Positions 14,952 to 34,363 of a DNA stretch of 64,000 bases are shown in pieces. The first letter of the stretch is position 1. The number at the start of each line of letters is the position of its first letter. The notes beneath the pieces are model-generated. The model searched no databases. It was given only the letters and a program-made list of their open reading frames with translations, and was not told the origin of the DNA. This DNA comes from Dehalococcoidia bacterium (GTDB taxonomy: Bacteria; Chloroflexota; Dehalococcoidia; Lucifugimonadales; UBA2985). The position numbers and the translations under genes were made by a program. The stretch is from contig OZ244718.1 in the NCBI GenBank assembly GCA_965218945.1, positions 1,981,700 to 2,045,699 of the forward strand, read 5' to 3'.

Positions 14952-16067
14952 ATGAGAAATCGCAGCGTGCCACCGCACATTCCCAATCGTTTGAAGAGTG
15001 CCATCAAGAGGAGCACCGAACCTATCAAGGCAGAGGAACGGCGAAAGGGTGTCTGCCTCTACGTAACCGGCGAGAATGGGAAACGTTGCGGGAACCCTGT
15101 GGGCAACAATTGCCACTTCGTTCCCGAATCTGCTGTCTTGGACGAGCTAAAGGATCGGCAGTCCAACAAGGTGCTTGAATTGCGGTGGGGCACGGCTCGA
15201 TGGGAACATTACTACGCGATGAGCAGTGCGACCAATCCAATTACACCGAACAATTTGGAGGCGTTCGAACCACAACTCGTGGCGCCTAGTCAAGCTTGTG
15301 TCGGTCGATTCGCGTGCAAGTGCACTCAGCCGGACCACGATAACGAGTTCAGCCTCATAGATGTCAAAGAACTTGATTTTGACGACCCTAGAGTACCCGT
15401 CTTGTCAATGTATCGGGCAGCTCTCTATGAGGCTGACTTATGCCGCCTGGGCAAGCGATTGGCGGAGCAGCACAGCCAACAGGCCTTGCGGCGCCCTCAA
15501 ATGGAGGTTCGAGTCTATTGGAATAGGCTGAGGGCCGCTTTGCAGAGTAGGACGCAATGGTCGGAAGCCACGTCAGAGCGGCTTGGCAAGATCTGGCATC
15601 GCTGGAAAACCGAAGGGAAGCTCGACGCCGATGCTGTTTCGGTGCGTGAACTGATTTTTCGCTCAAGCCTCAAATTTTCAGCCTGCGTGTTCGAGTACGA
15701 GAAGTACATCAGCATTACTGTGTCCCCCCTCGGAGGAAACCGGCACAAGATGGGAGTACTACATCTGTCTGATGACACTGAAGCGGCTAATGTAGCCATT
15801 GAGCGGCTGAGCCGAGTCGCAACTGAAACTGAGAACGCCACCAACTATGGAGTGAATGTGCTGAAGGACCTGATGACATATGGGGCAGGCAGCGTAGCCG
15901 CTTCGCCTGAGTCCTACCATGGATTGCCTATCGAGGAACAGCGAATGATCAACGGAATCGTGGCTGATGCTTCCGGCGCTGGGATACTCGCACACTCGTC
16001 TGGGTCTGAACGGCCGATGCCCAAAGGCGCAGTGCGAACCTATCAGCGGGGTAGGCGCGGGCGTTGA
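14952..16067 (+). CDS. Hypothetical Cys/His-rich protein (possible His-Me-finger/HNH-like N-terminus)
   Basis: Start taken at MRNRS (14952) after AGGAGGGG. N-terminal C-x10-C-x7-CH-FVPES...SNKVLEL...WEH spacing, second Cys cluster CVGRFACKCTQPDHD. The remaining 250 aa have no recognisable family. Confidence 0.5.
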   Translation: MRNRSVPPHIPNRLKSAIKRSTEPIKAEERRKGVCLYVTGENGKRCGNPVGNNCHFVPESAVLDELKDRQSNKVLELRWGTARWEHYYAMSSATNPITPNNLEAFEPQLVAPSQACVGRFACKCTQPDHDNEFSLIDVKELDFDDPRVPVLSMYRAALYEADLCRLGKRLAEQHSQQALRRPQMEVRVYWNRLRAALQSRTQWSEATSERLGKIWHRWKTEGKLDADAVSVRELIFRSSLKFSACVFEYEKYISITVSPLGGNRHKMGVLHLSDDTEAANVAIERLSRVATETENATNYGVNVLKDLMTYGAGSVAASPESYHGLPIEEQRMINGIVADASGAGILAHSSGSERPMPKGAVRTYQRGRRGR

Positions 16068-16206
16068 GCGCCAGATGTGGCGACAAGGGTAGAGAAGGCA
16101 TAGCATGACCATGCAAGATGCATCCTTCAACAACGAGATGCTAGAGGCTCTCGTGGGTATGGATGAGGGGCCGACACTGGACTTCAAGCGAGACGGAGCG
16201 TGACCC

Positions 16207-17045
16207 GTGCCAGACGATAGGTTCAATGAGTACTGCGAGGCTTTACTCGCACAGTACACTCGAAGGAACACGCAGACCGTCACTCAGCGCTTGGAAAGCC
16301 TGTGCGAGTTCCTCAGGCAGAAGGGCAATGTCGTGCAGACCATGTTCGGCGGTTCCGTCAAGAAGGGCACGTATGTGACCGGCCTCAGTGACGTCGATGT
16401 TCTTCTGATAGTAAGCGAGTCCTCTCTAGTGAGCCAATCCCCCTCGGATGTCATAGAGTTCGTACGGGACACCATTCAGCGACGGCTTCCTCAGAATCGG
16501 GTAACTGCGGGCAAACTGGCTGTGACAGTCAGCTACGCCAATGGGACCGAGATTCAGCTACTGCCCTCCATACGACAAGGACTGGCGGCGTTCGGATTGC
16601 CGAGCCCGGAAGCACCCAGTGGAGCAACGTGGCGCATCCCGAGAAATTCGCTGAGAAGCTCGCCGAGGTCAACATGGCGAGGGATGGCAGAGTCGTACCG
16701 GTAGTCAAGTTAGCCAAGGCAATGGCGGACTGTTTCATCAGCCGTCCAAGCAGGAAGATTAGCGGCTATCACATGGAGTCCCTGGCAATCGACGCATTCA
16801 GCAACTACCGGGGCCCGCTTGACCCGAAGGCTATGCTCGTTCACTTCCTGGGGCACTCCATAGAGGCGGTAAAGCAGCCCATCACCGATTCAACAGGACA
16901 GTCGAGATATGTAGACGAATACCTATGCACAGCTGATTCCCCACTCCGAAGGCGCGCCTCAACCTACTTTGGACAGATGCGGAGCAGGGTCAACCGTAGT
17001 AGGACCAGGGCCGAGTTCAACGCACTGTTCTGCATAGGGGACTAG
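16207..17045 (+). pseudogene. CD-NTase/SMODS-like nucleotidyltransferase, disrupted by a frameshift
   Basis: N-terminal helix then GGSVKKGTYVTGLSDVDVLLIV (GS...DxD NTase core). The reading frame switches near 16579-16582: ORF 16207..16704, then ORF 16629..17045 in the -1 frame. Restoring one nt gives ...LLPSIRQGTGGVRIAEPGSTQWSNVAHPEKFAEKL... Confidence 0.7.
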
Positions 17046-17060
17046 GGAGACGAGCGCGGC

Positions 17061-17195
17061 ATGGTGAGCGTGGGAATTCTACCGAAGATCAAGTCGAATG
17101 GCAATTTCAGCCTGCTCGGCGAGCCGCTGACTGAGCTCAGGGGATTTCTTGGACTCTTTGCTGAAGCTGACACCCTAAAGAGCGCCACAAGATGA
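17061..17195 (+). CDS. Candidate 44-aa ORF coupled to the STAND NTPase gene
   Basis: Own translation: MVSVGILPKIKSNGNFSLLGEPLTELRGFLGLFAEADTLKSATR. Its TGA overlaps the ATG of the next gene (ATGA at 17192..17195). Confidence 0.25.
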   Translation: MVSVGILPKIKSNGNFSLLGEPLTELRGFLGLFAEADTLKSATR

Positions 17196-22133: not shown

Positions 22134-22438
22134 CGTCGAAAGTACCCTTGACATTACCCCCGAAGTTAGTATCAATGGCTGGTAGAATCCACTTGGCTGG
22201 ACTCGAACTGCTCAAATGCGGCTGAGGCAACAGACCTGTCTCTCAACCATCGAGCTACTTGATTGAATCAGAATCTATAACCCATGAGTAACGCAGTTTT
22301 TGGTGTCGATTGACTAATATGTATGGACATGCTCACCATGAGCGGAAAGAGATGTCGGTACAAACAACTTGGGAATATTGGGAAGGCGTCTGGTCTTGTT
22401 CCATTTCGCCCATCGTCCTATCCTTTAACCATAATCAG

Positions 22439-23257
22439 ATGATTGCAAGAGTCTCAAGCGCTGTTGTAGGTATCCCTCTGGTGCTGGCTGCCGTCTGGGC
22501 GGGCGCGCCCTGGTTCTCCCTGTTGGCGGCAGTCGCGGGATCTCTTGGTGTGCTGGAGTTCTACAGACTCGCGGAGGAGCGAGAGGCGCGGCCCGAAGTC
22601 GTCTTGGGCATCGGGTGGACGCTGCTCTTAATAATCAGCGGGCACCAGGGCGGCTCGTTGACTATGTGGGCGCTTCTTGGTGGAGGAGCGGCCGTCTTTG
22701 CATGGCACCAACTGGGTCGACTGAGAAGACTGTGGGGAGCGCCGTCGCTCGGCTTCCGGGACGCCATGCGCGACTACGGCTATACCACTGCGGGCGCCAT
22801 CTACCTTGGGTGGCCCCTTTCGCTAGCGCTGGTCCTGCGCGCCGAGGTGCAGGGCCTGGAGTGGATTCTGATAGTCCTGTTAGGGACCTTCGCAACCGAT
22901 ACGGGGGCTTTCTTCACGGGCAGGGCAATTGGCAGAAGGCCCCTTGCGCCCAGTATAAGCCCAGGCAAGACGCAGGAGGGAGCTGTAGGAGGCTTCCTGG
23001 CAGGTGTTGGGGCGGTAATGGCCCTGGCTGCACTGCTCGACCTTCCACTGTCTATTCCGGAGTCGGCTGTGCTTGGGGCGCTGGTTGCCGTGGCCGGCCA
23101 GGTCGGCGACCTTGTGGAGTCGAAGATCAAGCGCTCAGCCGGAGCGAAGGACGCGGGCGGGCTTATCCCGGGCCACGGCGGAATTCTAGACCGGCTTGAT
23201 AGCGTTGTGTTCGTAATTATCGTGATATATGCTTTCTTTGTAATTGTTTCTCTGTAG
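22439..23257 (+). CDS. cdsA: Phosphatidate cytidylyltransferase
   Basis: Polytopic membrane protein with the C-terminal CdsA signature SKIKRSAGAKDAGGLIPGHGGILDRLDS. Start taken at MIARVSS (the ORF track starts at 22310). Confidence 0.88.
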   Translation: MIARVSSAVVGIPLVLAAVWAGAPWFSLLAAVAGSLGVLEFYRLAEEREARPEVVLGIGWTLLLIISGHQGGSLTMWALLGGGAAVFAWHQLGRLRRLWGAPSLGFRDAMRDYGYTTAGAIYLGWPLSLALVLRAEVQGLEWILIVLLGTFATDTGAFFTGRAIGRRPLAPSISPGKTQEGAVGGFLAGVGAVMALAALLDLPLSIPESAVLGALVAVAGQVGDLVESKIKRSAGAKDAGGLIPGHGGILDRLDSVVFVIIVIYAFFVIVSL

Positions 23258-23267
23258 GACGGGCAAT

Positions 23268-24395
23268 GTGAAGAGACTGGCTATATTGGGATCTACAGGC
23301 TCAATAGGAAGGCAGACACTGGACATAGTGCGAGCTTTCCCTGAGGAGTTCTCCGTGGTAGGGCTCTCGGCAGGGCACAATCTAGATCTGCTTGCAGAGC
23401 AAGCCCGCGAGTTCCAGCCCAACGCGGTCTCCTGCGAGGAGCCTCCCGAAACCCTGGCGTCCAGTCTTCCCCCGGCGTGTCTGGTGGTCTCGCATGAAGA
23501 AGTCGCGAGCCATCCCGATGCGGACACGGTCATGGCGGCCAGCGTCGGAAAGGCGGGCCTGGCGCCCATATTGGCCGCCATTCGGGCGCAGAAGACGGTG
23601 GCGCTGGCTAACAAGGAGCCGGTGGTCATGGCGGGGCATATAGTCATGGGCGAGGCAAGACGCCTAGGGGTGGATATCCTCCCCGTGGACAGCGAGCCCA
23701 GCGCCATCTGGCAGTGCCTGCGCGGAGAGCAGAAAGACCTGTCCAGGGTGGTGATAACTGCTTCCGGGGGGGCTTTCAGAAACCGGCGCCGGGATGAGCT
23801 GGCTACGGTGACGCCGGAAGAGGCTTTGCAGCATCCAACCTGGAGCATGGGCAGGAAGATAACCATAGACTCCGCCACGCTGATGAACAAGGGCTTCGAG
23901 GTGATTGAGGCGCGCTGGCTCTTCGACCTGCCCTGGGAGAAGATAGACGTTGTTGTGCACCACCAGAGCATCATACACGCTATGGTGGAGTTCGCAGACG
24001 GCTCCGTGAAGGCGCAGCTGAGTCCCCCGGATATGCGCCTGCCAATCCAGTGCGCCCTCTTCTACCCCCAACGAGTGGAAAACGGCGCGCTGCCTCGGTT
24101 CAACCCGGTGGAGACGGGATCGCTCACCTTTGAGGCGCTGGATATAGACAGGTATCCCTGCTTCCGCCTGGCGTTGGAGGCCGGGAAGAAGGGAGCGACC
24201 TACCCTGCGGTGATAAGCGCCGCGGACGAGGTGGCCGTGGCCCTTTTCCTGGAGCGTCGCATCGCGTTTACGAGCATCCCGGATCTGGTGGAAGATGTCC
24301 TCTCGAAGCACACGCCCGTATCCACCCCCGGCCTGGAGGACATTCTCGACGCGGACGGGTGGGCCAGGGAGGCCGCCCGCGCCTGGGCAGGTTAG
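23268..24395 (+). CDS. dxr: 1-deoxy-D-xylulose 5-phosphate reductoisomerase
   Basis: KRLAILGSTGSIG NADPH motif, LANKE, ITASGG, HP.WSMG..ITIDSAT.MNKG.E. GTG start at 23268 chosen (the ORF track starts at 23244). Confidence 0.93.
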   Translation: MKRLAILGSTGSIGRQTLDIVRAFPEEFSVVGLSAGHNLDLLAEQAREFQPNAVSCEEPPETLASSLPPACLVVSHEEVASHPDADTVMAASVGKAGLAPILAAIRAQKTVALANKEPVVMAGHIVMGEARRLGVDILPVDSEPSAIWQCLRGEQKDLSRVVITASGGAFRNRRRDELATVTPEEALQHPTWSMGRKITIDSATLMNKGFEVIEARWLFDLPWEKIDVVVHHQSIIHAMVEFADGSVKAQLSPPDMRLPIQCALFYPQRVENGALPRFNPVETGSLTFEALDIDRYPCFRLALEAGKKGATYPAVISAADEVAVALFLERRIAFTSIPDLVEDVLSKHTPVSTPGLEDILDADGWAREAARAWAG

Positions 24396-24401: not shown

Positions 24402-25523
24402 ATGCTGGGCGGCGTCCTCGTAATAGTGGGTTTCTTCGTGATTCTGATGATTCACGAAGGCGGTCATCTGGTTGCTGCCAAGGCCTTTGGGATGAAGGCC
24501 ACCAAGTATTTCCTGGGCTTTGGGCCCACCCTGTGGTCCTTCAAGCGCGGGGAGACGGAGTACGGCGTCAAGGCTATTCCCGCCGGCGGGTTCGTCTCCA
24601 TTATAGGGATGAACCCCCTTGAGTACGTGTCGCCGGAGGAGGAACACCGCACGTACAGGGGCAGGCCCTTCTATCAGAAATCGGTGGTGGTGATGGCCGG
24701 CGTGGGTACCCACTTCATAATAGCCTTCATCCTCATATGGACTGCCAACGTTCTGATTGGCCGTCCGGACCCGGACCAGCCTCAGCTTGAGATAGCCCGG
24801 ATAGTGGCGGAAACAGCCGACGGATCTCCCACTGCCGCTGCCGAGGCTGGGCTGATGGCTGGTGACATGGTGCTTGCAATTGACGGAACGCCCCTCGAGA
24901 GGTGGAGCGACCTCACTACGGTCCTGCGGTCCAGCCCCAACCGCTTCGTGAGGATAGAGGTGGAGCGTAACGGAGAGCGGTTGACTCTGGGCGGGACGTT
25001 GACCTCACGCATAGACCCTGACACGGGCGAGGAGGCGGGATTCCTGGGCGTGTCCCCCGAGATAGGCAGGATCCGAGACACCCCCATCGCTGGGATCGGC
25101 ACTGCCGCCGGCAGGGTTGCCACTTTTGCGCAACTGAGCGTCAGGGGGGTATGGGAGCTTGTCAGCAACTTCGGCAGCTATGTAAGCGCCGTCTTCAACA
25201 GCGACGATGAGGCCATTAACGAGGTGCGCCCGGTGAGCGTGATAGGCATTACCCAGTTCGGCGCGGCCACCCAGAGGTCCGGCCTCAACTTCACGCTGGA
25301 GCTGATAGCCTACGTAAGCGTATTTGTCGGGGTGCTGAACGCCGTACCTCTGTATCCATTCGACGGGGGCCACTTCGCGGTCGCCCTCTACCAGAAGGTC
25401 ACAGGGAGGCAGCCGGACATACGAAAGCTGGCGCCCATCGGCGCGCTGGTGTTCTTCTTCATAGTAATGGTCGGTTTACTGGGCGTCTATTTTGATATAG
25501 TCCACCCTCTGGACTTCGGCTAG
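24402..25523 (+). CDS. rseP: RseP-type site-2 metalloprotease (M50) with PDZ domain
   Basis: HEGGH zinc motif at the N-terminus, central PDZ (AAAEAGLMAGDMVLAIDG), C-terminal NAVPLYPFDGG motif. Confidence 0.9.
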   Translation: MLGGVLVIVGFFVILMIHEGGHLVAAKAFGMKATKYFLGFGPTLWSFKRGETEYGVKAIPAGGFVSIIGMNPLEYVSPEEEHRTYRGRPFYQKSVVVMAGVGTHFIIAFILIWTANVLIGRPDPDQPQLEIARIVAETADGSPTAAAEAGLMAGDMVLAIDGTPLERWSDLTTVLRSSPNRFVRIEVERNGERLTLGGTLTSRIDPDTGEEAGFLGVSPEIGRIRDTPIAGIGTAAGRVATFAQLSVRGVWELVSNFGSYVSAVFNSDDEAINEVRPVSVIGITQFGAATQRSGLNFTLELIAYVSVFVGVLNAVPLYPFDGGHFAVALYQKVTGRQPDIRKLAPIGALVFFFIVMVGLLGVYFDIVHPLDFG

Positions 25524-25545
25524 AGACGGCAAATGAGGTATTGAG

Positions 25546-26928
25546 ATGGTAAAAGGCAAGGACACGACCAAGGCGAATTTTCTGAACCGCACCCTCTGGA
25601 CGGGTGACAACCTGGACGTTATGCGCGGCCTCAACTCTGAGACCATAGACCTGATATACCTGGACCCTCCCTTCAACTCAAACAAGACCTACTCCGCGCC
25701 CATAGGAAGCAAGGCTGCGGGCGCGGCTTTCAAGGACACCTGGACGCTGGACGACGTAGACCTTGCCTGGCACGGTGAGATTGCGGAGGCCAACCCGGGG
25801 CTGTACAGCGTGATTGAGGCGGCGGGCATAGCGCACGGCAAGGGAATGAAGTCTTACCTGATTATGATGGGAGTCCGCCTTATGGAGATGAGGCGACTCC
25901 TGAAACCAACCGGGAGCCTGTACCTCCATTGCGACCCCACTGCCAGCCACTACCTCAAGTTGGTAATGGACAGCGTTTTTGGTCCCGAGTGCTTTATGAA
26001 CGACGTGACTTGGAAGCGGACCAGCGCCCATAGCGACAGTGGGCGTTTTGGCGCTAACACCGACACAATACTGGTCTATAGCAAAACCGATGCAAAGACT
26101 TGGACACCTCAATTTCTGGCCTATGAGAAAGAGTATGTAGCGCGTTTCCGCCAGAAGGACGAAGATGGGCGCGCCTGGTCAGACTATGACATTACCGCAA
26201 AAGGTTTATCAGGTGGAGGATATGAGTACGAATATAAGGGCGTTTTTGGCTTGTGGCGCGTTCCAGAATCGACAATGCAAAAGCTGGACAGTGAAGGCAA
26301 GCTCCATTTCACGAGAACCGGAGGCATCAGGCTCAAGCGGTATCTGGATGAAATGAAAGGTAGACCCGTGCAGGCTCTATGGGATGATATACCACCTATA
26401 AATTCTCAATCGAAAGAGCGCACGGGCTATCCTACACAGAAGCCCCGCGCATTGCTGGAGCGCATAATCCAAGCCAGCAGCAATGAGGATGACGTTATCC
26501 TGGACCCCTTCTGCGGGTGCGCCACTGCCCTTGTGGCGTCTGAATACCTGAACCGGCAGTGGATAGGCATAGACCTGTCACCCAGGGCCAGAGACCTTAT
26601 CCGGGAGCGTATGGAGAAAGAGCTTGGCCTGTTCAGCCTCAGGGCCATCTACCGGGAGGACGTGCCCAGGCGCACAGACTTGGGGGAGATACCCAACTAC
26701 AAGACGCAGAAGCATACCCTGTTCGGCCAGCAGGAGGGGATATGCGCGGGCTGCCTGGTATCCTTCCCCTTCCGCAATTTCGCCATTGACCACAAAATAG
26801 CGAAGGCAAAGGGCGGGACAGACCATCTGGAGAACCTGCAACTGCTTTGCCCCGCCTGCAACTCCAAGAAGGGAACCAAGACCCAAGAGGAATTCATTGC
26901 CCAGTTGAAGGCGGACGGGGTAAGGTAG
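25546..26928 (+). CDS. Beta-class N6/N4 DNA methyltransferase fused to a C-terminal HNH endonuclease domain
   Basis: Motif IV DPPF (LIYLDPPFNS) precedes motif I (ILDPFCGCATA). C-terminal CAGC...AIDHKIAKAKGGTDHLENLQLLCPACNSKKG is a classical HNH. Confidence 0.85.
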   Translation: MVKGKDTTKANFLNRTLWTGDNLDVMRGLNSETIDLIYLDPPFNSNKTYSAPIGSKAAGAAFKDTWTLDDVDLAWHGEIAEANPGLYSVIEAAGIAHGKGMKSYLIMMGVRLMEMRRLLKPTGSLYLHCDPTASHYLKLVMDSVFGPECFMNDVTWKRTSAHSDSGRFGANTDTILVYSKTDAKTWTPQFLAYEKEYVARFRQKDEDGRAWSDYDITAKGLSGGGYEYEYKGVFGLWRVPESTMQKLDSEGKLHFTRTGGIRLKRYLDEMKGRPVQALWDDIPPINSQSKERTGYPTQKPRALLERIIQASSNEDDVILDPFCGCATALVASEYLNRQWIGIDLSPRARDLIRERMEKELGLFSLRAIYREDVPRRTDLGEIPNYKTQKHTLFGQQEGICAGCLVSFPFRNFAIDHKIAKAKGGTDHLENLQLLCPACNSKKGTKTQEEFIAQLKADGVR

Positions 26929-26973
26929 AATAGGTACACGCTGGAAAACGCTTAACACACTAAGAGGGTCTAA

Positions 26974-28392
26974 ATGCAGCTTTCGCAATCCATAGAAGCA
27001 AGCGGGGTCTTTTGGCTACCAGACAAACCCGAGGACAAAATGCATGGTAAAGTTTCTATCTCCGAAAAAGGAGAAGTGTCCGCGGATATGTTCTGCTATC
27101 CCGGTCCTACTGAAGAATACCTCCTCGAATTGGAGGAGAGGCAAGGAAGGGAAGAAGTGGGAAGGAGACCGCTACCACTACGCATTTTAGGGGTAACTTA
27201 CGAGGGAATCGCTGTGACTCTCGATGATTGTCTATTCCTTGAGGCTAGCCGACCAGTAAGAATATTGCAAGCCTCATTGCCCCCAAAATGGCAAGATAAA
27301 TTGAACCACACACCCGACAAGTACAGGTTGCATGTTTCGCGGGCGTTCTGGGGAGCACATGTCAATACCGAGGAAGAGATTTTCTCAAGTATGACCTTCT
27401 CGATCGAGGGTCTCGAAAATTGGTTATGGTTTTATAGCAGTGAAAATTCTGGCGATGCGATTTCGTCTTTAATTACCCTAGTCGATGGGCAATTGCCAGA
27501 CGACTTCACTATGCACTTGTACTTAGCTGGTTACGGTAGACGTCATGGATTCGGCGTGGAAGAGAAAGGCTTATGCCCTCGTTTTGGTATAGCATCAAGT
27601 CGGAAACGCTCATTCATTGATTTTAGTCGAGTATTGAGGCGGGTAAGAGCGTTCCTCTGCCTTGCTTTTAACTGTACCCCTTCTTTTAAGTCCATCATCG
27701 GGTCACTGGAACTAGACGATCACGACAGTGTGGGGGTCTACGGCATTGATTTAGACGGTAAACTTCCAAAACTATCCGAGCATGAGCCATTCTTGGGTGG
27801 AGGCCTCATCACATTTAAAGAAGCGCGACACAACTTCACAGAGCTTTTGACCAAATGGCTAAAATCTTATGAGGAACCCCAATACAATGTCGCTTTCTAC
27901 TGGTACTTTCAGACTGCCCCGGCTCTGGAGATGCCTTTGGATGCAGCCTTCTCGGTCCTCATGCAATGTGTAGAAGGGTTGCATCGAGCGACCTACTCCG
28001 GCATGAAGGATGAGGACGCGGAACGACACAAGAATGACCTTGATCTCCATTTGAAAGACGCTGACAAAGAGTTGAGGGCCTGGGTAAAGGAAAAACTGGC
28101 TCATGCAACAGAACTTACCCTATCGCAGAGAATGAAGACGATGATGCCAGAGAACTTCGAAAGACTGTTTGATGACCAAGGTGAAAAATTTGTCAAAGAA
28201 GCCGTATCCATTCGTAACGCTTTCGCCCATCCTGAAGGTAGGAGACTTGAAGCGGCGACCAACGATACAGAGAATCTAGTACGACTATACCGCGACTTGG
28301 AAACTTTTGTGACGATTTTTTTGTTGGAGACGCTTTTGGGAATCAAGTGTGACCAGCACAAGATAGACATAATCAAACGAGGAAGAGAGTAA
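26974..28392 (+). CDS. ApeA-like abortive-infection protein (ApeA N-terminal domain + HEPN)
   Basis: 472 aa, clearly AT-richer than flanks. N-terminus SGVFWLPDKPEDKMHGKVSISEKGEVSADMF resembles ApeA_NTD1. The C-terminal helical domain carries the Rx4H HEPN motif (SIRNAFAHPEG). Confidence 0.6.
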   Translation: MQLSQSIEASGVFWLPDKPEDKMHGKVSISEKGEVSADMFCYPGPTEEYLLELEERQGREEVGRRPLPLRILGVTYEGIAVTLDDCLFLEASRPVRILQASLPPKWQDKLNHTPDKYRLHVSRAFWGAHVNTEEEIFSSMTFSIEGLENWLWFYSSENSGDAISSLITLVDGQLPDDFTMHLYLAGYGRRHGFGVEEKGLCPRFGIASSRKRSFIDFSRVLRRVRAFLCLAFNCTPSFKSIIGSLELDDHDSVGVYGIDLDGKLPKLSEHEPFLGGGLITFKEARHNFTELLTKWLKSYEEPQYNVAFYWYFQTAPALEMPLDAAFSVLMQCVEGLHRATYSGMKDEDAERHKNDLDLHLKDADKELRAWVKEKLAHATELTLSQRMKTMMPENFERLFDDQGEKFVKEAVSIRNAFAHPEGRRLEAATNDTENLVRLYRDLETFVTIFLLETLLGIKCDQHKIDIIKRGRE

Positions 28393-28616
28393 TGCTAGGC
28401 CCTGACCTCGCGATAGAACCCCTATCAGCGTCAAGACGCCGGGCGCGTAGGCTGAGGACTCCGGCGGCCAATTGCCAGCCTCACGGCTCCACGCACAGAG
28501 GCGCAGGCCCGCGCCTCAAATTGACCCTTGCCCCTTCATAGGGTAGACTACCTTTGAGCCGTAGCCAGGCTTGGGTCAGGCCGCGAGCAATTGGATATAA
28601 CCGAAGGAGGATTGAA

Positions 28617-29462
28617 ATGCCAGAGCTAGAGCAGGTCCCCTACCTACTGTACGAAAAAGAGGATAATGGCATCCTCTGGATCAAATTCAACAGGCCGGAG
28701 AGGTTGAACGCCGTCATCGGCGGCTCCGACCGTAACGGCACACTGACCAAGGTTGTTGAGTACATGAAGGCCGGAGACGACGACCCGGACGTGCGGGTCA
28801 TTGTCCTCACCGGCATGGGGCGGGCCTTCTGCGCGGGCGTGGACATCAGGGGTCTTGAGGACTTCGACAGCGGCGGACCTTTCCTGGGCCAGGCGCGCAC
28901 GGATGGCCCGGACGCCACACGGGAGGGCTTCTACCACGCCACGACCAAGACTATGAAGGACATCTCCTACATAAGGAAGCCCACCATCGCTATGGTCAAC
29001 GGAGCGGCAGCCGGCTTCGGCATGGACATGGCCCTGCAGTGCGACATCCGCTACGGCTGCGAGAACACCCGCTTCATCACCTACCAGCAGGTCGGCCAGA
29101 TCATAGAGAACGGCGGATGCTACTACCTGCCCAAGCTGGCCGGTCTGGGTCGCGCCCTGGAGTTCGCCTTCACCGGCTTCCTGGACGCCGAGACTGCGCA
29201 TGAGTGGGGCGTTTTGAACAGGCTCTTCCCCTCCGAGAAGCTGGAGGAGGAGGTGCGGGCCCTGTGCCAGCGGATAATCAACAGCCCGCCGCTGACCCAG
29301 TGGATAAACAAGCGCGTCATCAGGGCAGCTATAGACAGCAACCTGGAGACCACCGCCGTCCTGACCTCCAACGCAGCCGTTATTCTGGGCCTGTCCGAGG
29401 ACTCCAAGGAAGCCCGCCAGGCGCTGACCGAGAGACGGACGCCAGTTTTCCAGGGCCGGTAG
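28617..29462 (+). CDS. Enoyl-CoA hydratase/isomerase (crotonase) family protein
   Basis: ILWIKFNRPERLNAV, VIVLTGMGRAFCAGVDI oxyanion-hole region, AMVNGAAAGFGMDMAL. ATG at 28617 follows GGAGGA. Confidence 0.88.
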   Translation: MPELEQVPYLLYEKEDNGILWIKFNRPERLNAVIGGSDRNGTLTKVVEYMKAGDDDPDVRVIVLTGMGRAFCAGVDIRGLEDFDSGGPFLGQARTDGPDATREGFYHATTKTMKDISYIRKPTIAMVNGAAAGFGMDMALQCDIRYGCENTRFITYQQVGQIIENGGCYYLPKLAGLGRALEFAFTGFLDAETAHEWGVLNRLFPSEKLEEEVRALCQRIINSPPLTQWINKRVIRAAIDSNLETTAVLTSNAAVILGLSEDSKEARQALTERRTPVFQGR

Positions 29463-29494: not shown

Positions 29495-30643
29495 GTGTTC
29501 CAAATGAGGCCTCGAAGAGTTTCCAAAGCCATCCAGGTTGGCGATGTCACCGTAGGAGGCAATGCGCCCATTACGGTCCAGTCCATGACCAAGACGGACA
29601 CCCGGGACGTGGACGCGACGGTGCGCCAGATTAAGGAGCTGGAGGAGGTGGGGTGTGACATCATACGGCCTGCCGTTCCCGATATGGAGGCGGCTCACGC
29701 CCTGCGAGAGATAGTGAAGCAGGTCAAGATACCGGTCATCGCCGATATCCACTTTCACTACCAGTTGGCTTTGGAGTCCATCGCGGCGGGCGTTGACGGA
29801 CTTCGCCTGAATCCCGGCAACATCCGGGATAGGGAGAAGGTGGAGATGGTTGTGCGCGCCGCCAAAGAGAGGCAGATTCCCATACGCATTGGGGTCAACT
29901 TTGGCAGCCTCCCCCCGGTTGGACAGATAGGGAAGTTCCGCGGGCTGCACAGGCACGCGGACGGCGTGAACAAGCTGGCAAAGGCGGGAGAGGCCGGCGA
30001 GGGCGAGTTCTCCGTCGTGGATCACATGGTGGCCACTGCCCTCTGGGAGATAAGCGTCCTGGAAGACCTGGACTTTGACCTAATCAAGATCTCCCTCAAA
30101 GCCTTTGACGTGCCCACCACGGTGGAGGCGTACCGCAGGCTGGCCTACATGGTTCCGTATCCCCTGCACCTGGGCATCACCGAGGCCGGGACCGCCATGG
30201 CGGGATCGATTCGCAGTTCCGTGGGCCTGGGCTACCTGCTGTACGAGGGCATCGGCGACACCATAAGGGTGTCGCTGAGCGCGGACTCTAAGGAGGAGAT
30301 AGCGGCCGGGTACGAGATCCTGAAGTCCTTGAATTTGAGGGAGAAGGGCACGACCCTTGTGGCCTGTCCCTCCTGCGGCCGCGCCGACGTGGACGTCATC
30401 AAGCTGGCCAACACGGTTGACGACCTGCTGAAGGCCAAGAACTACAACGTGAAGGTGGCCGTGATGGGCTGCGAGGTGAACGGCCCGGGCGAGGCCAAGG
30501 ACGCCGACGTGGGCATAGCCGCCGGCGTAGGCCGCGCCATCATCTTCCGCAAGGGGCAAAAATCCCGTGTGGTGGAGGAATCGGAGATGCTCTCCGCCCT
30601 GATGGAAGAGGTGGAGATGGTGGTTGCGGGACAGGAGGCGTAG
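29495..30643 (+). CDS. ispG: 4-hydroxy-3-methylbut-2-en-1-yl diphosphate synthase
   Basis: APITVQSMT, IPVIADIHF, RLNPGNI, C-terminal ACPSCGR...VAVMGCEVNGPGEA Fe-S ligands. Confidence 0.93.
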   Translation: MFQMRPRRVSKAIQVGDVTVGGNAPITVQSMTKTDTRDVDATVRQIKELEEVGCDIIRPAVPDMEAAHALREIVKQVKIPVIADIHFHYQLALESIAAGVDGLRLNPGNIRDREKVEMVVRAAKERQIPIRIGVNFGSLPPVGQIGKFRGLHRHADGVNKLAKAGEAGEGEFSVVDHMVATALWEISVLEDLDFDLIKISLKAFDVPTTVEAYRRLAYMVPYPLHLGITEAGTAMAGSIRSSVGLGYLLYEGIGDTIRVSLSADSKEEIAAGYEILKSLNLREKGTTLVACPSCGRADVDVIKLANTVDDLLKAKNYNVKVAVMGCEVNGPGEAKDADVGIAAGVGRAIIFRKGQKSRVVEESEMLSALMEEVEMVVAGQEA

Positions 30644-31309: not shown

Positions 31310-31431
31310 TGCGTGGGCGCTGTTCCATTCGCTCCTATCTCAATCTTCCCCCCCTGATGAGACCTTTGAATAGGGAATTATATACCTGTGTAACACCGAG
31401 AGTCGCTTGCAAAGTTGGTGCAATGGAAGTT

Positions 31432-31445
31432 TGCAAAGCTTTGCA
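31432..31445. promoter_or_regulatory. Perfect 14-bp palindrome TGCAAAGCTTTGCA with an upstream TTGCAAAG half-site (operator candidate)
   Basis: TGCAAAGCTTTGCA is self-complementary. TTGCAAAGTTGGTGCAA at 31407..31423 repeats the half-site. Located in AT-rich DNA about 100 nt upstream of ORF 31545. Confidence 0.3.
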
Positions 31446-31544
31446 CCAGGCTATACAATAGTGTTATCACCATAACATTTAGGCATGGTTAGGAGGTTGA
31501 CTATGCTGGAGCAAGACGGGGAACAGCGAGGCAGTCCTAGGTAG

Positions 31545-31907
31545 GTGCAGTTCTCTACACTGCATACCGGCTGGCACATGATTGTCGTCAGCCTGCAATG
31601 TGTTGTTTTCCTAGGGATTGTGTTATGGCGCGAGGTAGACCTTGTTGACACAGATACTTGGATCGACACTACGGTAGCAACTGGACGTGGCTTTGAACCA
31701 TTCATATTCATTGCATTGTTCAATTCTTTGCTAATAGTGGAAGGGGGCTCAATGCTTGCTGAAATCTTCAAACAGGCACGATTTGAGAAGGGGAAAGCAG
31801 AAGGCTTCAAAGAAGGTTACAAGAAGGCTAAGGAGGAACTGGCACAAGAGCAATCTAACAATAATCCGCCAGCCCAACAACCTTCAGAGGAATCACCTAA
31901 GCAATAA
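31545..31907 (+). CDS. Hypothetical membrane protein with Lys/Glu-rich tail
   Basis: 120 aa; two hydrophobic segments then a KAEGFKEGYKKAKEEL tail; low-GC context; no family recognised. Confidence 0.35.
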   Translation: MQFSTLHTGWHMIVVSLQCVVFLGIVLWREVDLVDTDTWIDTTVATGRGFEPFIFIALFNSLLIVEGGSMLAEIFKQARFEKGKAEGFKEGYKKAKEELAQEQSNNNPPAQQPSEESPKQ

Positions 31908-32244
31908 GGCTCTTGTATTGGAGACTCTTGCCTACCGACCCTTGAGCCATGCTTGTCATCTGGTCGGTTGTGTCCAGTGGTCGCACGTTGTGCCTTCCCG
32001 AAAGCTCGCCCACGTACAGCCCCAGATGCTTGGTACTGACGTGGTGATAGGCTCCGTCAATCCCGCGCTTGAGCATTGCCCATAGACTCTCTATCCCGTT
32101 GGTGTGGGCTTGCTGGCGCACATACTCTCCAGCACTATGCCGAACAACCATGTGAAGACGGTTATCTATGCCCGCATAGGCTGGATGTTCATCAGTGTAG
32201 ACGGCAGAACCAGGGTCGGTGTGCTCTAGGACAAAGCCTTGCAA
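31897..32244 (-). pseudogene. IS1595-family (ISXO2-like) transposase, C-terminal fragment only
   Basis: 115 aa: VYTDEHPAYAGI...HSAGEYVRQQAHTNGIESLWAMLKRGIDGAYHHVSTKHLGLYVGELSGRHN matches the IS1595 DDE C-terminal region. The N-terminal two-thirds are missing. Confidence 0.75.
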
Positions 32245-32278
32245 TGTGGGCTTGTCTAGGGTTAACAGTCTTGTTCTC

Positions 32279-34363
32279 TTATAAGGACAGGATGGTCAGA
32301 GGTCCCGTATCGGCGGCGGAGTCCAACTGAGCGGCCAGCGCCTCCGGTTCCGTCACCGGCTGCTGGCAGGCGTAGTTCTGGCAAACGTAGGCGGTTGGGA
32401 GGCCGGCCAGCATACCCTTGTCTTCCAGCAGAGGCAGTTCCTGCTCAAAGCCGTCGGCATCCGGGTCGTAGCCCGCCACTATCTTGTTGGGCAGGTAGCG
32501 TCCGTGCACCGTATCAAGCAGCGCCTTCGCGGCCGCGTCCTCGGTTGGACCCACAATGGCTATCTCCTTTGGCGCGGCCAGGTAGAAGTCCAGCGCGCCC
32601 AGCCAGTGCCCGAACCCCTCCGGGACTTGGGCCATGTACTCCCGCACCGACCTGAGGGCCGAGGCGGCCTTTCGGCCGAAGTCGGGTTCGTCCATGAAGA
32701 GGCTTAGCCGCAGTAGCACGTCCGAAGCGACGGAGCTCCCGCAGGGCATGGCGTTGTCGCTGAAGTCCCTGGGGCGGACTATCAGCGTCTCATGATCGAT
32801 GCCCGTGTCGTAGAACACGCCGTCTCCGTCGTCCCAGAACAGCTCTATCATCTGCCGGGCCAGGGCGTCGGCCTCGCTGAGCCAGCGCGAATCAAAGGTC
32901 GCCTCGTACAGAGTAATGAGGCCGTCTATCAGGTGGGCGTAGTCCTCCAGGTATGCCTTGAGCTTGGCCTCGCCGTCCTTGTAGGTGCGAAGCAGCCGCC
33001 CGTCGTCTCTCATGTTGGCCAGGATGAAGTCGGCGTTGGCGACCGCCGCACGCAGGTAGTCCTCCCGATTGAGAACAGCCGCGCCCAGGGCCATGCTGTG
33101 CAGCATCGTGCCGTTCCATGATGTGAGGACTTTGTCGTCCGTCGCCGGCGGGATTCGCTCGACTCTGGCTTCCAGCAGCAGCTTCTTGCCGCGCTCCACG
33201 ACGTCCGCCAGTTCCTCTACCGGGAGGCCCTGTTCATGGGCGAACTCGGCAAGCATTTGAGGCGTGTGCAGAATGTTCTGACCCTCGAAGTTTCCCTCGT
33301 ATGTGACGCCAAAGTACCCTTGAAGTACGGCGGCGTCTCGGGGTCCCAGTATCCTCTCTATCTCGTGCGGCGTCCAGACAAAGAATATGCCCTCCTCGCC
33401 CTCGCTGTCGGCGTCCTGGGACGAGTAGAAGCCTCCCTCCGAGTGGGTCATCTCCCTCAGCACGTAGTCCAGGGTCTCCTGGGCAATGTCTCTGTAAAAG
33501 GGATTGCCGGTAGCCTGGTACGCGTGAAGGTACAGCCGACTGAGAAGGGCGTTGTCGTACAGCATCTTCTCAAAGTGGGGCACCAGCCAGTAGGGGTCTG
33601 TGGAGTAGCGATGGAACCCTCCTCCAAGCTGGTCGTAGATGCCTCCCCGGGCCATGCGCTCCAGAGTGACATCCACCATGTTCAGCGCCTGGGGCTGCTC
33701 GCTGAGGAGGTGGTATCTGAGGAGGAACTCCAGGACCATAGGCTGGGGGAACTTGGGCGCCGTTCCGAATCCCCCGTACTCTGCATCGAACTTATCCCTG
33801 AGGCCGTTATAGGCGGAGGCGAGCACGTCCCTAGTCAGCGGTTCCATGCCTTGAGCCGAGCCGGCCGACCTCTGCATAGCGGTTGTTATCTCTTCAGCCG
33901 ACCGTGCGATGTCGGCGCGTCGGTTCCGGTACGTCTCGGCGAGCGCCATGAGGACTCTGGGGAAGCCGGGCATCCCGTGGCGGTCCTCCGGCGGGAAGTA
34001 GGTGCCGCCGTAGAAAGGCTCGCCTGTGGGTGTCAGGAACATCGACATGGGCCATCCGCCGCGTCCGGTCATGGCCTGCACTGCGCCCATGTAGATGGAG
34101 TCCAGGTCCGGTCGCTCCTCCCTGTCCACCTTTATGTTGACGAAGTGATCGTTCATTATGAGGGCGATCTGGTCGTTCTCGAAGGACTCCCGCTCCATAA
34201 CGTGGCACCAGTGGCACGCCGAGTAGCCGATGCTGAGGAAGATGGGCTTGTCCTCCTCGCGGGCCTTCTGCAGGGCCTCCTCTCCCCAGGGATACCAGTC
34301 CACGGGGTTGTTGGCGTGCTGCACCAGGTAGGGGCTTGTCTCTTTGATAAGTCTATTGGGCAT
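32279..34363 (-). CDS. Thioredoxin-domain protein, DUF255/YyaL (SPATA20-like) family
   Basis: 694 aa; N-terminus [51 protein letters not shown], followed by a six-hairpin glycosidase-like region. Confidence 0.9.

What the first reader, a model, noticed from the sequence alone, without database searches (positions are those of the whole stretch)
25546..28392. Methyltransferase-HNH fusion plus ApeA/HEPN gene inserted between rseP and ispG
cdsA-dxr-rseP-ispG is a widely conserved neighbourhood. Here rseP is followed after 22 nt by a beta-class DPPF DNA methyltransferase that carries its own C-terminal HNH nuclease. Next comes a clearly AT-richer 472-aa protein with an ApeA-like N-terminus and an Rx4H HEPN motif (SIRNAFAH), then a crotonase, and only then ispG. 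A single-polypeptide MTase-HNH next to a HEPN abortive-infection protein may be a two-layer defence islet, or a functionally coupled pair, embedded in an essential lipid/isoprenoid operon.
Basis: partly seen in the sequence, partly recalled or inferred. Interest (0 to 1): 0.6.

Follow-up and report, generated by a model that had tools for sequence, protein, structure and literature searches.

The report
Variable defence slot: methylase-nuclease plus ApeA
Between two housekeeping genes of a probable sponge-associated Chloroflexota bacterium lies a fast-changing slot that here holds a predicted one-protein restriction-modification enzyme (methylase fused to an HNH nuclease) and a separate ApeA anti-phage RNase; the two are independent neighbours rather than a coupled machine.

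Summary
ORF 25546-26928 is a beta-class DNA methyltransferase resembling Type III Mod, with an intact C-terminal HNH nuclease. ORF 26974-28392 is a bona fide ApeA (ApeA_NTD1 + HEPN_Apea, RNxxxH). GC falls from about 0.61 to 0.55 and then 0.47.

Related contigs show a hypervariable slot between the rseP stop codon and the conserved crotonase promoter. At least ten states exist:
- empty, twice;
- ApeA alone;
- MTase-HNH with ApeA, with DUF4238, or with an unknown gene;
- MTase-HNH with alternative target-recognition domains;
- non-defence genes.

One relative kept ApeA and only a roughly 45-nt remnant of the MTase-HNH gene, so the pair is old but not obligately coupled.

The MTase-HNH family is large: at least 592 loci across many phyla, mostly apparent sponge symbionts. 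It has no recurrent partner gene. The core is 50-74% identical to the window protein while the recognition domains fall into about 43 types. Sister proteins carry Mrr-type nucleases in place of HNH. Some copies ride inside IS1595 transposons.

Best reading: an autonomous single-chain restriction-modification enzyme next to an independent abortive-infection or RNase gene. This is a new variant of known kinds, untested experimentally.

The parts
24402..25523 (+). rseP (site-2 protease), the left anchor of the variable slot
   Evidence: Pfam Peptidase_M50 E=1e-40 plus PDZ. Homology with every relative ends at its stop codon.
25524..25545 (+). 22-nt spacer with a GAGG ribosome-binding site. No promoter-like or terminator-like site was found in it, so co-transcription with rseP is likely (inferred).
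   Evidence: Sequence; scan. The same 22-nt spacing occurs in L001, L084 and L085. A diverged copy persists in L087.
25546..26928 (+). MTase-HNH: a predicted single-polypeptide restriction-modification enzyme (460 aa)
   Evidence: Pfam N6_N4_Mtase plus HNH. A1 alignment invariants. Fold closest to Type III Mod subunits: EcoP15I 4zcf at E=1e-19, 6k0w, Mbo45V.
25663..25674 (+). Catalytic motif IV, DPPF (aa 40-43)
   Evidence: Invariant in 32 of 32 family members.
26037..26415 (+). Target-recognition domain (aa ~165-290), a swappable cassette
   Evidence: L084 and L085 carry unrelated sequence exactly here, while both sides of it align with the window at 77-93% nt. Protein pairs occur with core identity >=0.9 and TRD identity <=0.3. 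About 43 TRD types occur among 65 species.
26503..26526 (+). SAM-binding motif I variant, DPFCGCAT (aa 320-327)
   Evidence: D320, P321, F322, G324, C325, A326 and T327 are invariant.
26743..26877 (+). HNH (beta-beta-alpha-metal) nuclease domain (aa 400-444): Cys4 zinc site plus D415-H416...N430...N439
   Evidence: Pfam HNH E=8.5e-12 and HNH_5 E=1.7e-11. C400, C403, D415, H416, N430, C435, C438, N439 and K442 are invariant. Sister proteins carry Mrr_cat at this position.
26929..26973 (+). Intergenic spacer. The left breakpoint of the downstream cassette swap lies immediately after the MTase-HNH stop codon.
   Evidence: Homology with L001 and L084 ends at 26927-26929.
26974..28392 (+). ApeA (472 aa): HEPN ribonuclease defence protein
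   Evidence: Pfam ApeA_NTD1 plus HEPN_Apea and PADLOC PDC-S58. 889 family representatives, mostly full-length matches.
28213..28230 (+). HEPN catalytic motif R414-N-A-F-A-H419
   Evidence: R414, N415 and H419 are invariant in A3 and A4.
28393..28520 (+). Variable 3' spacer of the cassette; the right breakpoints lie here
   Evidence: Homology resumes at 28462 (L001), 28517 (L084), 28513 (L086) and 28516 (L088). Even the 98.8%-identical sister contig L003 differs here by a 158-bp indel.
28521..28549 (+). Conserved sigma-70-like promoter of crotonase-ispG (TTGACC-17-TAGACT), the right border of the slot
   Evidence: Promoter scan. Conserved in all 9 aligned alleles, including the two empty sites.
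28617..29462 (+). Crotonase/enoyl-CoA hydratase, the right anchor. The likely true start is the ATG at 28617 (281 aa, as in relatives).
   Evidence: Pfam ECH_1 E=2e-38. Gene calls in relatives are 281 aa. Sequence.

Best explanation
The DNA between the rseP stop codon and the crotonase promoter is a hypervariable chromosomal hotspot in this Chloroflexota lineage. In this strain it holds two independent single-gene immune modules.

(1) MTase-HNH is most likely an autonomous single-chain restriction-modification enzyme.
- A methyltransferase resembling Type III Mod, with its swappable target-recognition domain, reads a short DNA motif and methylates host copies. N6-adenine is the likely product (inferred from DPPF).
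- The fused C-terminal HNH nuclease nicks or cuts DNA carrying unmethylated copies, probably after dimerisation as Mod subunits do (inferred).

(2) ApeA is a stand-alone HEPN ribonuclease. By analogy with characterised ApeA proteins, it stays inactive until an infection-derived ligand binds a sensor pocket. It then cleaves tRNA anticodon loops or phage RNA.

The two genes are probably co-transcribed from the cdsA-dxr-rseP unit, but they act in parallel as first-line restriction and a backup, not as one machine. Slot contents turn over by recombination in the conserved flanks. The MTase-HNH family itself spreads between phyla, partly as a passenger of IS1595-family transposons and temperate phages.

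Shown: domain content, motif conservation, slot polymorphism, independence of the two genes, TRD and nuclease-domain swapping, and IS carriage.
Inferred: enzymatic activities, methylated base, cleavage mode, and anti-phage effect.
For: Domains and motifs.

Mod-like fold and sequence.

Slot alleles:
- Empty: L088, L172.
- ApeA only, with a remnant of the MTase-HNH 3' end: L087.
- Unknown 277-aa gene: L086.
- MTase-HNH + DUF4238: L001.
- MTase-HNH with a second TRD + 280-aa gene: L084.
- MTase-HNH with a third TRD: L085.
- Large TSP3/peptidase-like genes: L169, L171.
- The right border is a conserved promoter.

R-M-like evolution of the MTase-HNH family:
- The HNH catalytic and zinc residues and the MTase motifs are invariant.
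- The TRD is replaced by unrelated sequence between near-identical backbones.
- Core identity to the window protein is 0.51-0.74 across phyla, while TRD identity to it is 0.09-0.69 (~43 types among 65 species).
- The same MTase core carries a C-terminal Mrr_cat PD-(D/E)xK nuclease instead of HNH in L073, L068, L074, L080, L008 and Streptomyces phage Hippo gp48.
- No recurrent partner gene was found in 80 loci.

Defence-type neighbours of MTase-HNH elsewhere: ApeA in L048, AbiJ-like in L076, STAND NTPase in L022, PDC-S31 in L081.

Mobility: TIR- and 8-bp-TSD-bounded IS1595 elements carry it in L024 and L065.

ApeA mechanism comes from the literature: tRNA anticodon cleavage, a ligand pocket and deoxydinucleotide activation (bioRxiv 10.64898/2026.01.26.701840), and RNA-phage genome cleavage (10.64898/2026.03.20.713152). 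DUF4238 defence activity: 10.1101/2021.01.21.427644.
Against: - No member of this MTase-HNH architecture has been characterised, as far as my literature searches show. Nuclease activity, methylated base and anti-phage effect are all untested.
- Characterised single-chain R-M enzymes (Type IIG) use an N-terminal PD-(D/E)xK nuclease and a gamma-class MTase (from my own knowledge). A Mod-like MTase normally needs a Res translocase.
- A paralogue in the sister genome sits at the edge of a prophage, 2 kb from the large terminase and portal genes. There an HNH could serve DNA packaging.
- MTase-only relatives are common in viral contigs, presumably as anti-restriction orphan methylases.
- The slot also holds non-defence genes in some strains, so location alone does not prove defence.
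- The ApeA structural model was too poor to test the sensor pocket.
Confidence: 0.6

Rival explanations
1. Functionally coupled pair. MTase-HNH and ApeA form one system. For example, HNH or host exonuclease degradation of restricted DNA yields 5'-phosphorylated deoxydinucleotides that switch on ApeA, giving a restriction-to-abortive-infection relay.
For: - The genes are adjacent, co-oriented and 45 nt apart, with no terminator or promoter between them.
- The pair was present in the common ancestor of the window and L087 lineages.
- A second, unrelated lineage (Poribacteria, L048) has an ApeA 3 kb from an MTase-HNH.
- Ec2ApeA is activated by deoxydinucleotides derived from DNA degradation.
Against: - L087 deleted MTase-HNH and kept an intact 483-aa ApeA.
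- L001 and L084 kept MTase-HNH and replaced ApeA.
- About 78 other MTase-HNH loci lack ApeA.
- ApeA proteins work as single genes in published assays.
- In L048 the two genes are on opposite strands with other genes between them.
Confidence: 0.08
2. Phage-derived module. The MTase-HNH family is primarily a phage gene, with the HNH assisting terminase cutting during packaging and the MTase protecting phage DNA. The chromosomal copy here is a stranded or domesticated remnant without a restriction role.
For: - Paralogue P0083 in the sister genome lies at the edge of a prophage-like block, 2 kb upstream of TerL and an SPP1-type portal.
- Three full-length copies occur in viral contigs; one is 3 kb from a tyrosine integrase.
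- The MTase-Mrr sister protein is encoded by Streptomyces Likavirus phages.
Against: - The window copy has no phage genes around it and has been kept intact at one chromosomal site across strains 4-18% diverged, with TRD replacement. That pattern fits selection on specificity, not packaging.
- Most of the 80 genome loci have housekeeping neighbours.
- In 77 of the 80 best viral loci the match does not extend through the HNH domain.
- In the phage cases the gene sits by the integrase or at the element edge, the usual place for lysogen-protecting cargo.
Confidence: 0.12
3. Selfish mobile element without a defence role. The HNH acts as a homing or nicking nuclease that promotes spread or retention of the gene (an addiction module), and the MTase only protects the host from it.
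For: - The family has a cross-phylum, even cross-domain, distribution with core identity to the window protein of 51-74%.
- It occurs as solitary insertions among housekeeping genes.
- It is carried inside IS1595 transposons with target-site duplications.
Against: - Mobility is explained by the IS transposase and phages, not by homing. The same chromosomal slot holds unrelated genes, so there is no site-specific homing signature.
- Clean loss of the gene in L087 and L086 shows it is not strongly addictive.
- In practice this rival overlaps with the best explanation, because selfish and defensive behaviour of R-M systems are not mutually exclusive.
Confidence: 0.12
4. Orphan regulatory methyltransferase (CcrM- or YhdJ-like) whose HNH-like tail is only a DNA-binding or structural zinc module.
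For: - Partial matches to CcrM and PRK11524 (YhdJ) profiles, well below their cut-offs.
- The gene appears to be co-transcribed with housekeeping genes.
- Public records annotate it only as 'DNA methyltransferase'.
Against: - The catalytic D-H...N...N residues are invariant in addition to the zinc ligands.
- The tail is replaced by a different nuclease fold in sister proteins.
- Presence is patchy among near-identical strains, and the TRDs are extremely diverse. Both are opposite to what a conserved regulator would show.
Confidence: 0.06

Closest known systems
ApeA anti-phage defence proteins (Ec1ApeA, Ec2ApeA; Gao et al. 2020 system; 2026 preprints)
   Same: - Same two Pfam domains over their full lengths, and the same RNxxxH HEPN motif.
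- Single-gene and stand-alone, as shown by L087.
- Located among defence genes.
   Different: - Only ~25-33% identical to most family representatives and 472 aa long, whereas Ec2ApeA numbering in the preprint runs to at least residue 583.
- Ligand pocket, oligomeric state and RNA target are unknown.
- No solved ApeA chain was detectable by sequence, and my model was too poor to compare.
Type III restriction-modification Mod subunits (EcoP15I Mod 4zcf, 6k0w, Mbo45V Mod)
   Same: - Best sequence-profile and fold matches across the whole MTase, including the TRD region.
- Beta-class motif order.
- TRD is exchangeable.
   Different: - No Res (helicase-nuclease) gene in the window, and no recurring partner in 80 loci.
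- The nuclease is a fused C-terminal HNH, and there is no ATPase.
- Motif I reads GCAT instead of the usual GSGT.
Single-polypeptide Type IIG/IIC restriction-modification enzymes (e.g. MmeI, BpuSI; from my own knowledge)
   Same: One protein combines target recognition, methylation and a nuclease. Specificity changes by TRD alteration. No partner gene is needed.
   Different: Those enzymes have an N-terminal PD-(D/E)xK nuclease and a gamma-class MTase. Here a beta-class MTase is followed by a C-terminal HNH (or Mrr-type nuclease in sister proteins). No activity data exist.
Streptomyces Likavirus phage MTase-nuclease fusion (phage Hippo gp48, annotated 'methyltransferase')
   Same: 42% identical over the MTase core, including DPPF and DPFCGCGT. 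It also has a C-terminal nuclease-like extension and sits next to the integrase.
   Different: The C-terminus looks like the Mrr/PD-(D/E)xK type, judged by eye and by analogy, not HNH. It is encoded by a temperate phage.
Core-genome defence hotspots and phage-satellite hotspots (e.g. P2/P4 hotspots, Rousset et al.)
   Same: Fixed flanks with many alternative cargo genes, including validated single-gene systems (ApeA, DUF4238).
   Different: The slot contains no integrase, phage or satellite. Its borders are a stop codon and a promoter. Its cargo includes non-defence-looking secreted or peptidase-like genes.

Membership tests
ApeA (HEPN defence protein) | N-terminal ApeA_NTD1 domain | tested here: met
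   PF18862 E=1.1e-22, profile positions 2-271 of 271
ApeA (HEPN defence protein) | C-terminal ApeA-type HEPN domain with the Rx4-6H catalytic motif | tested here: met
   PF18739 E=4.7e-13. R414, N415 and H419 invariant.
ApeA (HEPN defence protein) | Functions as a stand-alone single gene | tested here: met
   Genomic evidence only. L087 has ApeA alone in the same slot, with the MTase-HNH gene deleted.
ApeA (HEPN defence protein) | Doughnut-shaped oligomer, ligand-binding pocket, and tRNA or phage-RNA cleavage giving phage resistance | not testable with these tools
   Needs biochemistry. The AF2 model had pLDDT 57 and the fold search was meaningless. No PDB sequence match was found.
Beta-class N6A/N4C DNA methyltransferase (Pfam N6_N4_Mtase) | Catalytic (D/S)PP(Y/F) motif placed N-terminal to the SAM-binding motif, with the TRD between them | tested here: met
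   DPPF at aa 40-43, TRD at ~165-290, DPFCGCAT at 320-327. PF01555 E=6e-43.
Type III restriction-modification system | Mod-type methyltransferase | tested here: met
   Best PDB profile hit is 6k0w Mod (E=3e-25). Foldseek top hit is EcoP15I Mod (E=1e-19).
Type III restriction-modification system | Adjacent Res subunit (SF2 helicase plus nuclease) | tested here: not met
   No such gene flanks the ORF. No recurrent partner in 80 loci.
Type IIG/IIC single-chain R-M enzymes | Methyltransferase and nuclease domains in one polypeptide, with no partner gene needed | tested here: met
   The nuclease domain is interchangeable, HNH or Mrr_cat.
Type IIG/IIC single-chain R-M enzymes | N-terminal PD-(D/E)xK nuclease plus gamma-class MTase (the MmeI-like archetype) | tested here: not met
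   The nuclease is C-terminal HNH and the MTase is beta-class.
Type IIG/IIC single-chain R-M enzymes | Site-dependent cleavage of unmodified DNA, blocked by its own methylation | not testable with these tools
   Requires enzyme assays or expression with SMRT sequencing.
HNH (beta-beta-alpha-metal) nucleases | Catalytic D/H-N-H/N residues and a CxxC...CxxC zinc site | tested here: met
   C400, C403, D415, H416, N430, C435, C438 and N439 invariant. PF01844 E=8.5e-12.
Phage packaging-associated HNH proteins | Gene adjacent to terminase and portal genes of a phage | tested here: not met
   No phage genes lie around 25546-28392. The feature is met only for paralogue P0083 in the sister genome.
Chromosomal variable or defence hotspot | Conserved flanking core genes with alternative cargo, including empty sites, among related strains | tested here: met
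   Ten allelic states. Borders defined.
IS1595-family transposon passenger gene | Gene enclosed with the transposase between terminal inverted repeats and an 8-bp target duplication | tested here: not met
   Not met for the window copy: no transposase or TIR flanks 25546-26928. Met for family members L024 and L065. A separate IS1595 remnant lies at 31373-32300.

The most novel reading that the evidence does not exclude
MTase-HNH is a previously uncharacterised class of autonomous restriction enzyme: a Type III-Mod-derived methylase that has swapped its Res motor for a fused HNH or Mrr nuclease. IS1595 transposons and phages carry it across bacterial and archaeal sponge symbionts. In this islet it additionally primes its neighbour, because DNA fragments released by restriction are trimmed to 5'-phosphorylated deoxydinucleotides that activate ApeA. 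That would give a built-in restriction-to-RNase relay. The evidence excludes obligate coupling but not this facultative synergy.
Probability: 0.07. Interest if true: 0.75.

Novelty: new variant of a known kind. Interest (0 to 1): 0.5.

Why it matters
If the MTase-HNH proteins are active single-chain restriction-modification enzymes, they form a large and unexplored reservoir: at least 592 loci among one-genome-per-species representatives, with dozens of unrelated recognition domains on one conserved scaffold. That would be attractive for discovering new specificities and for engineering by recognition-domain swapping. It would also show that a Type III-like methylase can work without a Res motor.

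The family's passage between phyla, and into an archaeon, in what look like sponge microbiomes, partly inside IS1595 transposons, gives a concrete vehicle for the known enrichment of R-M genes in sponge symbionts.

The rseP/crotonase slot offers a clean natural experiment for how immune genes are gained, swapped and lost without any integrase. It has ten alleles, including empty sites and a deletion scar.

The ApeA gene itself is an ordinary, though divergent, member of a known family.

Tried and rejected
- Conserved partner gene. All-versus-all clustering of neighbours in 80 loci found only IS1595 transposases (14 loci) and ubiquitous SDR enzymes, so there is no partner.
- Shared community methylation barcode. 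Among the top 120 database hits most share the window's TRD type, but that is a ranking bias. In the one-per-species set the TRDs fall into ~43 types. Rejected.
- ApeA structure. AF2 with 6 sequences gave pLDDT 57, Foldseek hits were noise, and PDB sequence and profile searches found nothing.
- DUF4238 and the unknown slot genes (L084 280 aa, L086 277 aa, L169 and L171 proteins) against PADLOC: no hits.
- Characterised MTase-HNH enzyme in the literature: nothing relevant found.
- Annotated plasmid and phage collections. No hit extends through the HNH domain; the longest (Streptomyces phages) turned out to be MTase-Mrr-like.
- Viral contig L092 neighbour: no match in annotated phages.
- Identity of L003. 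I first took L003 to be the window's own contig. It is a 97-99% identical sister strain, so the 'second paralogue' statement refers to that sister genome.
- IS1595 TIR motif next to the window's MTase-HNH: absent. The only copy is at 31373.


Full report
**1. Observation**

The + strand carries cdsA (22310-23257), dxr (23244-24395), rseP (24402-25523), a 460-aa ORF (25546-26928), a 472-aa ORF (26974-28392), a crotonase gene, ispG (29495-30643) and an AHSA1-family gene. The ORF tool gives the crotonase as 28554-29462, but the likely true start is 28617.

The 460-aa protein matches Pfam N6_N4_Mtase (aa 34-352, E=6e-43) and HNH (aa 400-444, E=8.5e-12). The 472-aa protein matches ApeA_NTD1 (E=1e-22, full profile length) and HEPN_Apea (E=5e-13). 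It also matches the PADLOC models PDC-S58 (E=1.6e-29) and Cas13-ApeA.

GC is 0.60 in rseP, 0.55 in the MTase-HNH gene, 0.47 in ApeA and 0.62 in the crotonase gene.

**2. The locus is a hypervariable slot**

I retrieved contigs carrying close homologues of the MTase-HNH protein and of RseP. They give ten states of the same chromosomal position:

| Locus | Similarity to the window (RseP in aa, or flank in nt) | Slot content |
|---|---|---|
| L088 | RseP 79% aa | empty: rseP stop, ~22 bp, then the crotonase promoter |
| L172 | RseP 72% aa | empty |
| L086 | flanks 94% nt | one 277-aa gene of host-like GC, no family match |
| L087 | RseP 83% aa | a 483-aa ApeA alone |
| L169/L170 | RseP 82% aa | large genes with TSP3 repeats and weak peptidase similarity |
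| L171 | RseP 81% aa | large genes with TSP3 repeats and weak peptidase similarity |
| window | - | MTase-HNH + ApeA |
| L001 | 95.8% nt | MTase-HNH + DUF4238 |
| L084 | 85.6% nt in the left flank | MTase-HNH with a different recognition domain + an unknown 280-aa, GC-0.47 gene |
| L085 | 82% nt | MTase-HNH with a third recognition domain; the contig ends |

- The left border is always the rseP stop codon.
- The right border is always a conserved sigma-70-like promoter, TTGACC-17-TAGACT (window 28521-28549), in front of the crotonase gene.
- The slot contains no integrase, tRNA or repeat. Turnover is best explained by homologous recombination in the flanks (inference).
- The insert therefore sits between transcription units, not inside an essential operon. 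With 22-nt and 45-nt gaps and no predicted terminator, the two genes are probably read through from rseP (inference).

**3. The two genes are not obligately coupled**

In L087 the sequence just after rseP retains a diverged copy of the MTase-HNH 5' leader. It also retains about 45 nt that align with the last codons of the MTase-HNH gene (...EEFIAxLKADGVR-stop). ApeA follows directly.

So the ancestor of the window and L087 lineages had both genes. L087 later deleted MTase-HNH cleanly and kept an intact ApeA. Conversely, L001 and L084 keep MTase-HNH and carry other genes where ApeA lies in the window. The breakpoint is exactly after the MTase-HNH stop codon.

ApeA differs by 57% at the protein level between the window and L087, while the flanking RseP and crotonase differ by 17% and 5%. 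That is the usual pattern for an immune gene.

Among 80 MTase-HNH loci from one-genome-per-species representatives, only one (L048, Poribacteria) has an ApeA nearby. It lies 3 kb away on the other strand. This fits clustering of defence genes, not a two-gene system.

**4. What the MTase-HNH is**

*Size and conservation.* The architecture is common. All 120 listed database clusters share the window protein's Pfam domains and cover at least 92% of it; most are about 455 aa (range 433-519). At least 592 loci were found in the species-representative genome set.

*Hosts.* They include Dehalococcoidia, Caldilineaceae, Poribacteria, Poriferihabitaceae, Acidobacteriota, Binatia, Alpha- and Gammaproteobacteria, Rhodothermales, Cyanobacteria, Latescibacterota and a Nitrosopumilus archaeon. 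From their names, most look like marine-sponge symbiont MAGs. The sponge attribution rests on the record titles and on my own knowledge of those bin names.

*Invariant residues in a 32-sequence alignment:*
- the catalytic DPPF motif;
- the PTQKP and DPFCGCAT motifs;
- the whole HNH active site and zinc site: C400, C403, D415, H416, N430, C435, C438, N439, K442.

*Recognition domain.* The middle of the protein (aa ~165-290) falls into unrelated types.
- L084 and L085 replace exactly window 26037-26415 while both sides align with the window at 77-93% nt.
- Protein pairs occur with 90% or more core identity and 30% or less identity in this segment.
- Across species, core identity to the window protein is 0.51-0.74 regardless of phylum. 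Recognition-domain identity to it spans 0.09-0.69, with about 43 types among 65 proteins.

*Closest solved structures.* By sequence profile and by predicted fold (AF2, pLDDT 74.7) these are Type III Mod subunits: 6k0w, EcoP15I Mod and Mbo45V Mod. No Res gene is present.

*Nuclease swapping.* Close sister proteins have the same MTase core but carry a C-terminal Mrr_cat PD-(D/E)xK nuclease in place of HNH. These are L073 from cultured Allosphingosinicella, L068, L074, L080, and a second gene in L008. Streptomyces Likavirus phages encode a 547-aa version next to their serine integrase.

*Neighbours.* No gene recurs next to MTase-HNH. The only recurrent neighbour is an IS1595-family transposase, or a fragment of one, within about 2 kb in 14 loci. 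In L024 and L065 the transposase and the MTase-HNH gene are enclosed together by 33-38-nt terminal inverted repeats beginning GGGAATTAT. They are flanked by 8-bp target duplications: AAATCTTT in L024, and CTAGCGAG/CTAGCGCG in L065.

Where low-GC genes follow MTase-HNH elsewhere, they look defence-like:
- an AbiJ_NTD4/DUF7014 protein (L076);
- a STAND NTPase with a REase-like N-terminus (L022);
- PDC-S31 (L081);
- DUF2806 (L070).

*Conclusion for this protein.* Four features together are the evolutionary signature of a restriction-modification enzyme in a single chain: invariant nuclease chemistry, interchangeable nuclease folds, rampant recognition-domain exchange, and no partner gene. I put about 0.6 on that reading. 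I found no experimental work on this architecture, and public records call it only 'DNA methyltransferase'.

**5. ApeA**

The protein is a regular member of the family. There are 889 representatives at E<=1e-3, and most are full-length alignments of 440-490-aa proteins at 25-33% identity.

Published work shows the following:
- ApeA proteins are single-gene defences.
- Ec2ApeA forms doughnut-shaped decamers and cleaves tRNA anticodon loops. It is switched on by 5'-phosphorylated deoxydinucleotides bound in a pocket formed by the N-terminal and HEPN domains (bioRxiv 10.64898/2026.01.26.701840).
- Ec1ApeA senses and cuts RNA-phage genomes without killing the cell (10.64898/2026.03.20.713152).

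I infer the same general mechanism here. The ligand cannot be predicted: the structural model was poor (pLDDT 57), and no solved ApeA chain could be matched.

DUF4238, which replaces ApeA in L001, was reported to protect E. coli against T7 (10.1101/2021.01.21.427644).

**6. Rivals**

- A restriction-to-ApeA relay, in which restriction debris becomes the dinucleotide signal, is attractive given the Ec2ApeA trigger. The gene-loss and gene-swap patterns make any coupling facultative at best (about 0.08).
- A phage-packaging or anti-restriction origin is suggested by a 63%-identical paralogue in the closest sequenced genome. That genome is the ENA contig behind L003/L174, 97-99% identical to the window. 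The paralogue sits at the edge of a prophage-like block, 2 kb from the large terminase and portal genes. However, the window copy has no phage context, and in 77 of the 80 best viral loci the match does not extend through the HNH domain.
- A purely selfish element and an orphan regulatory methylase are less consistent with clean losses, strain-level patchiness and recognition-domain diversity.

**7. Comparison, novelty and score**

- ApeA is a new member of a known family.
- The slot is an ordinary, though well resolved, chromosomal hotspot.
- MTase-HNH works like a Type IIC/IIG enzyme but fails the archetype's defining layout. The archetype has an N-terminal PD-(D/E)xK nuclease and a gamma-class MTase. 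MTase-HNH has a Type III Mod-like MTase but lacks Res.

It is best described as a new, uncharacterised variant of single-chain R-M enzymes. Interest is 0.5: not categorically new, but a large and tractable family with clear experiments.

**8. Context noticed**

The 15 kb upstream of cdsA is itself a defence island. It contains McrBC, a YhcG-type nuclease, a serine recombinase, a frameshifted SMODS-like gene and a NACHT-like NTPase. An IS1595 remnant with the same TIR motif lies 2.4 kb downstream of the slot's right border.

Noticed in passing
window 5038-19933: A larger defence island lies just upstream of cdsA. It contains a serine recombinase (5038-6627, -), a YhcG/DUF1016 PD-(D/E)xK nuclease (7666-8904, -), McrB-like AAA_5 (10501-12534) plus McrC (12401-13804), and a 913-aa protein with a weak NACHT match (17192-19933). 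A methylation-dependent McrBC coexisting with MTase-HNH implies compatible modification types.
   Followed up: partly
window 16207-17045: A SMODS (CBASS-type nucleotidyltransferase) gene is intact (279 aa) in the 98.8%-identical sister contig L003. In the window it appears split into two overlapping frames (16207-16704 and 16629-17045), so it is probably a frameshifted pseudogene or a sequencing error.
   Followed up: no
window 31373-32300: A low-GC IS1595-family remnant. The terminal-repeat motif GGGAATTAT occurs at 31373, its only occurrence in the window, and a truncated transposase lies at 31897-32244 (-). The region is absent from the 94%-identical relative L086. The same repeat motif bounds the IS1595 elements that carry MTase-HNH in other genomes.
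   Followed up: partly
L024 5558-8515; L065 5957-8437: Complete IS1595-family transposons (transposase + MTase-HNH) with 33-38-nt inverted repeats and 8-bp target-site duplications. They occur in a Rhodobacter MAG and a Dehalococcoidia MAG, so a predicted restriction-modification enzyme travels as an insertion-sequence passenger.
   Followed up: partly
L174 7001-8374 (sister genome, ENA ERZ25072076 ctg245925): A second MTase-HNH paralogue (63% identical) lies at the edge of a prophage-like block. It is followed by small ORFs, a large terminase (461 aa), an SPP1-type portal and another large N6_N4 methylase.
   Followed up: partly
L073, L068, L074, L080, L008 (12039-13733, -); L173 2974-4617: Sister methyltransferases of the same core family carry a C-terminal Mrr_cat PD-(D/E)xK nuclease instead of HNH. 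One is in cultured Allosphingosinicella vermicomposti. A similar version occurs in Streptomyces Likavirus phages, next to the serine integrase.
   Followed up: partly
L004-L083 (record titles): The hosts of the MTase-HNH family are overwhelmingly taxa typical of marine sponges (Poribacteria, Poriferihabitaceae, Dehalococcoidia, Caldilineaceae, Acidobacteriota, Nitrosopumilus). Core identity to the window protein is 51-74% across phyla and even across domains, which suggests extensive horizontal transfer within that habitat.
   Followed up: partly
window 26974-28392 versus L087 9243-10694: The ApeA alleles in the same slot are only 43% identical, while the flanking RseP and crotonase are 83% and 95% identical. 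The N-terminal aa ~50-200 are 16-48% identical, whereas both ends remain alignable at the nucleotide level. This indicates mosaic or diversifying evolution, possibly of the sensor region.
   Followed up: partly
L169 7238-10324; L171 7247-10634: In other strains the same slot holds large proteins with bacterial TSP3 repeats and weak metallopeptidase similarity. They look like secreted or host-interaction proteins rather than defence, so the hotspot is not defence-specific.
   Followed up: no
L025 8956-10839 (-): One ORF combines a Type I HsdS-like specificity domain (Methylase_S) with an IS1595 zinc ribbon and transposase domain, 0.6 kb from an MTase-HNH gene. It could be a real fusion or an artefact of my crude ORF calling.
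   Followed up: no
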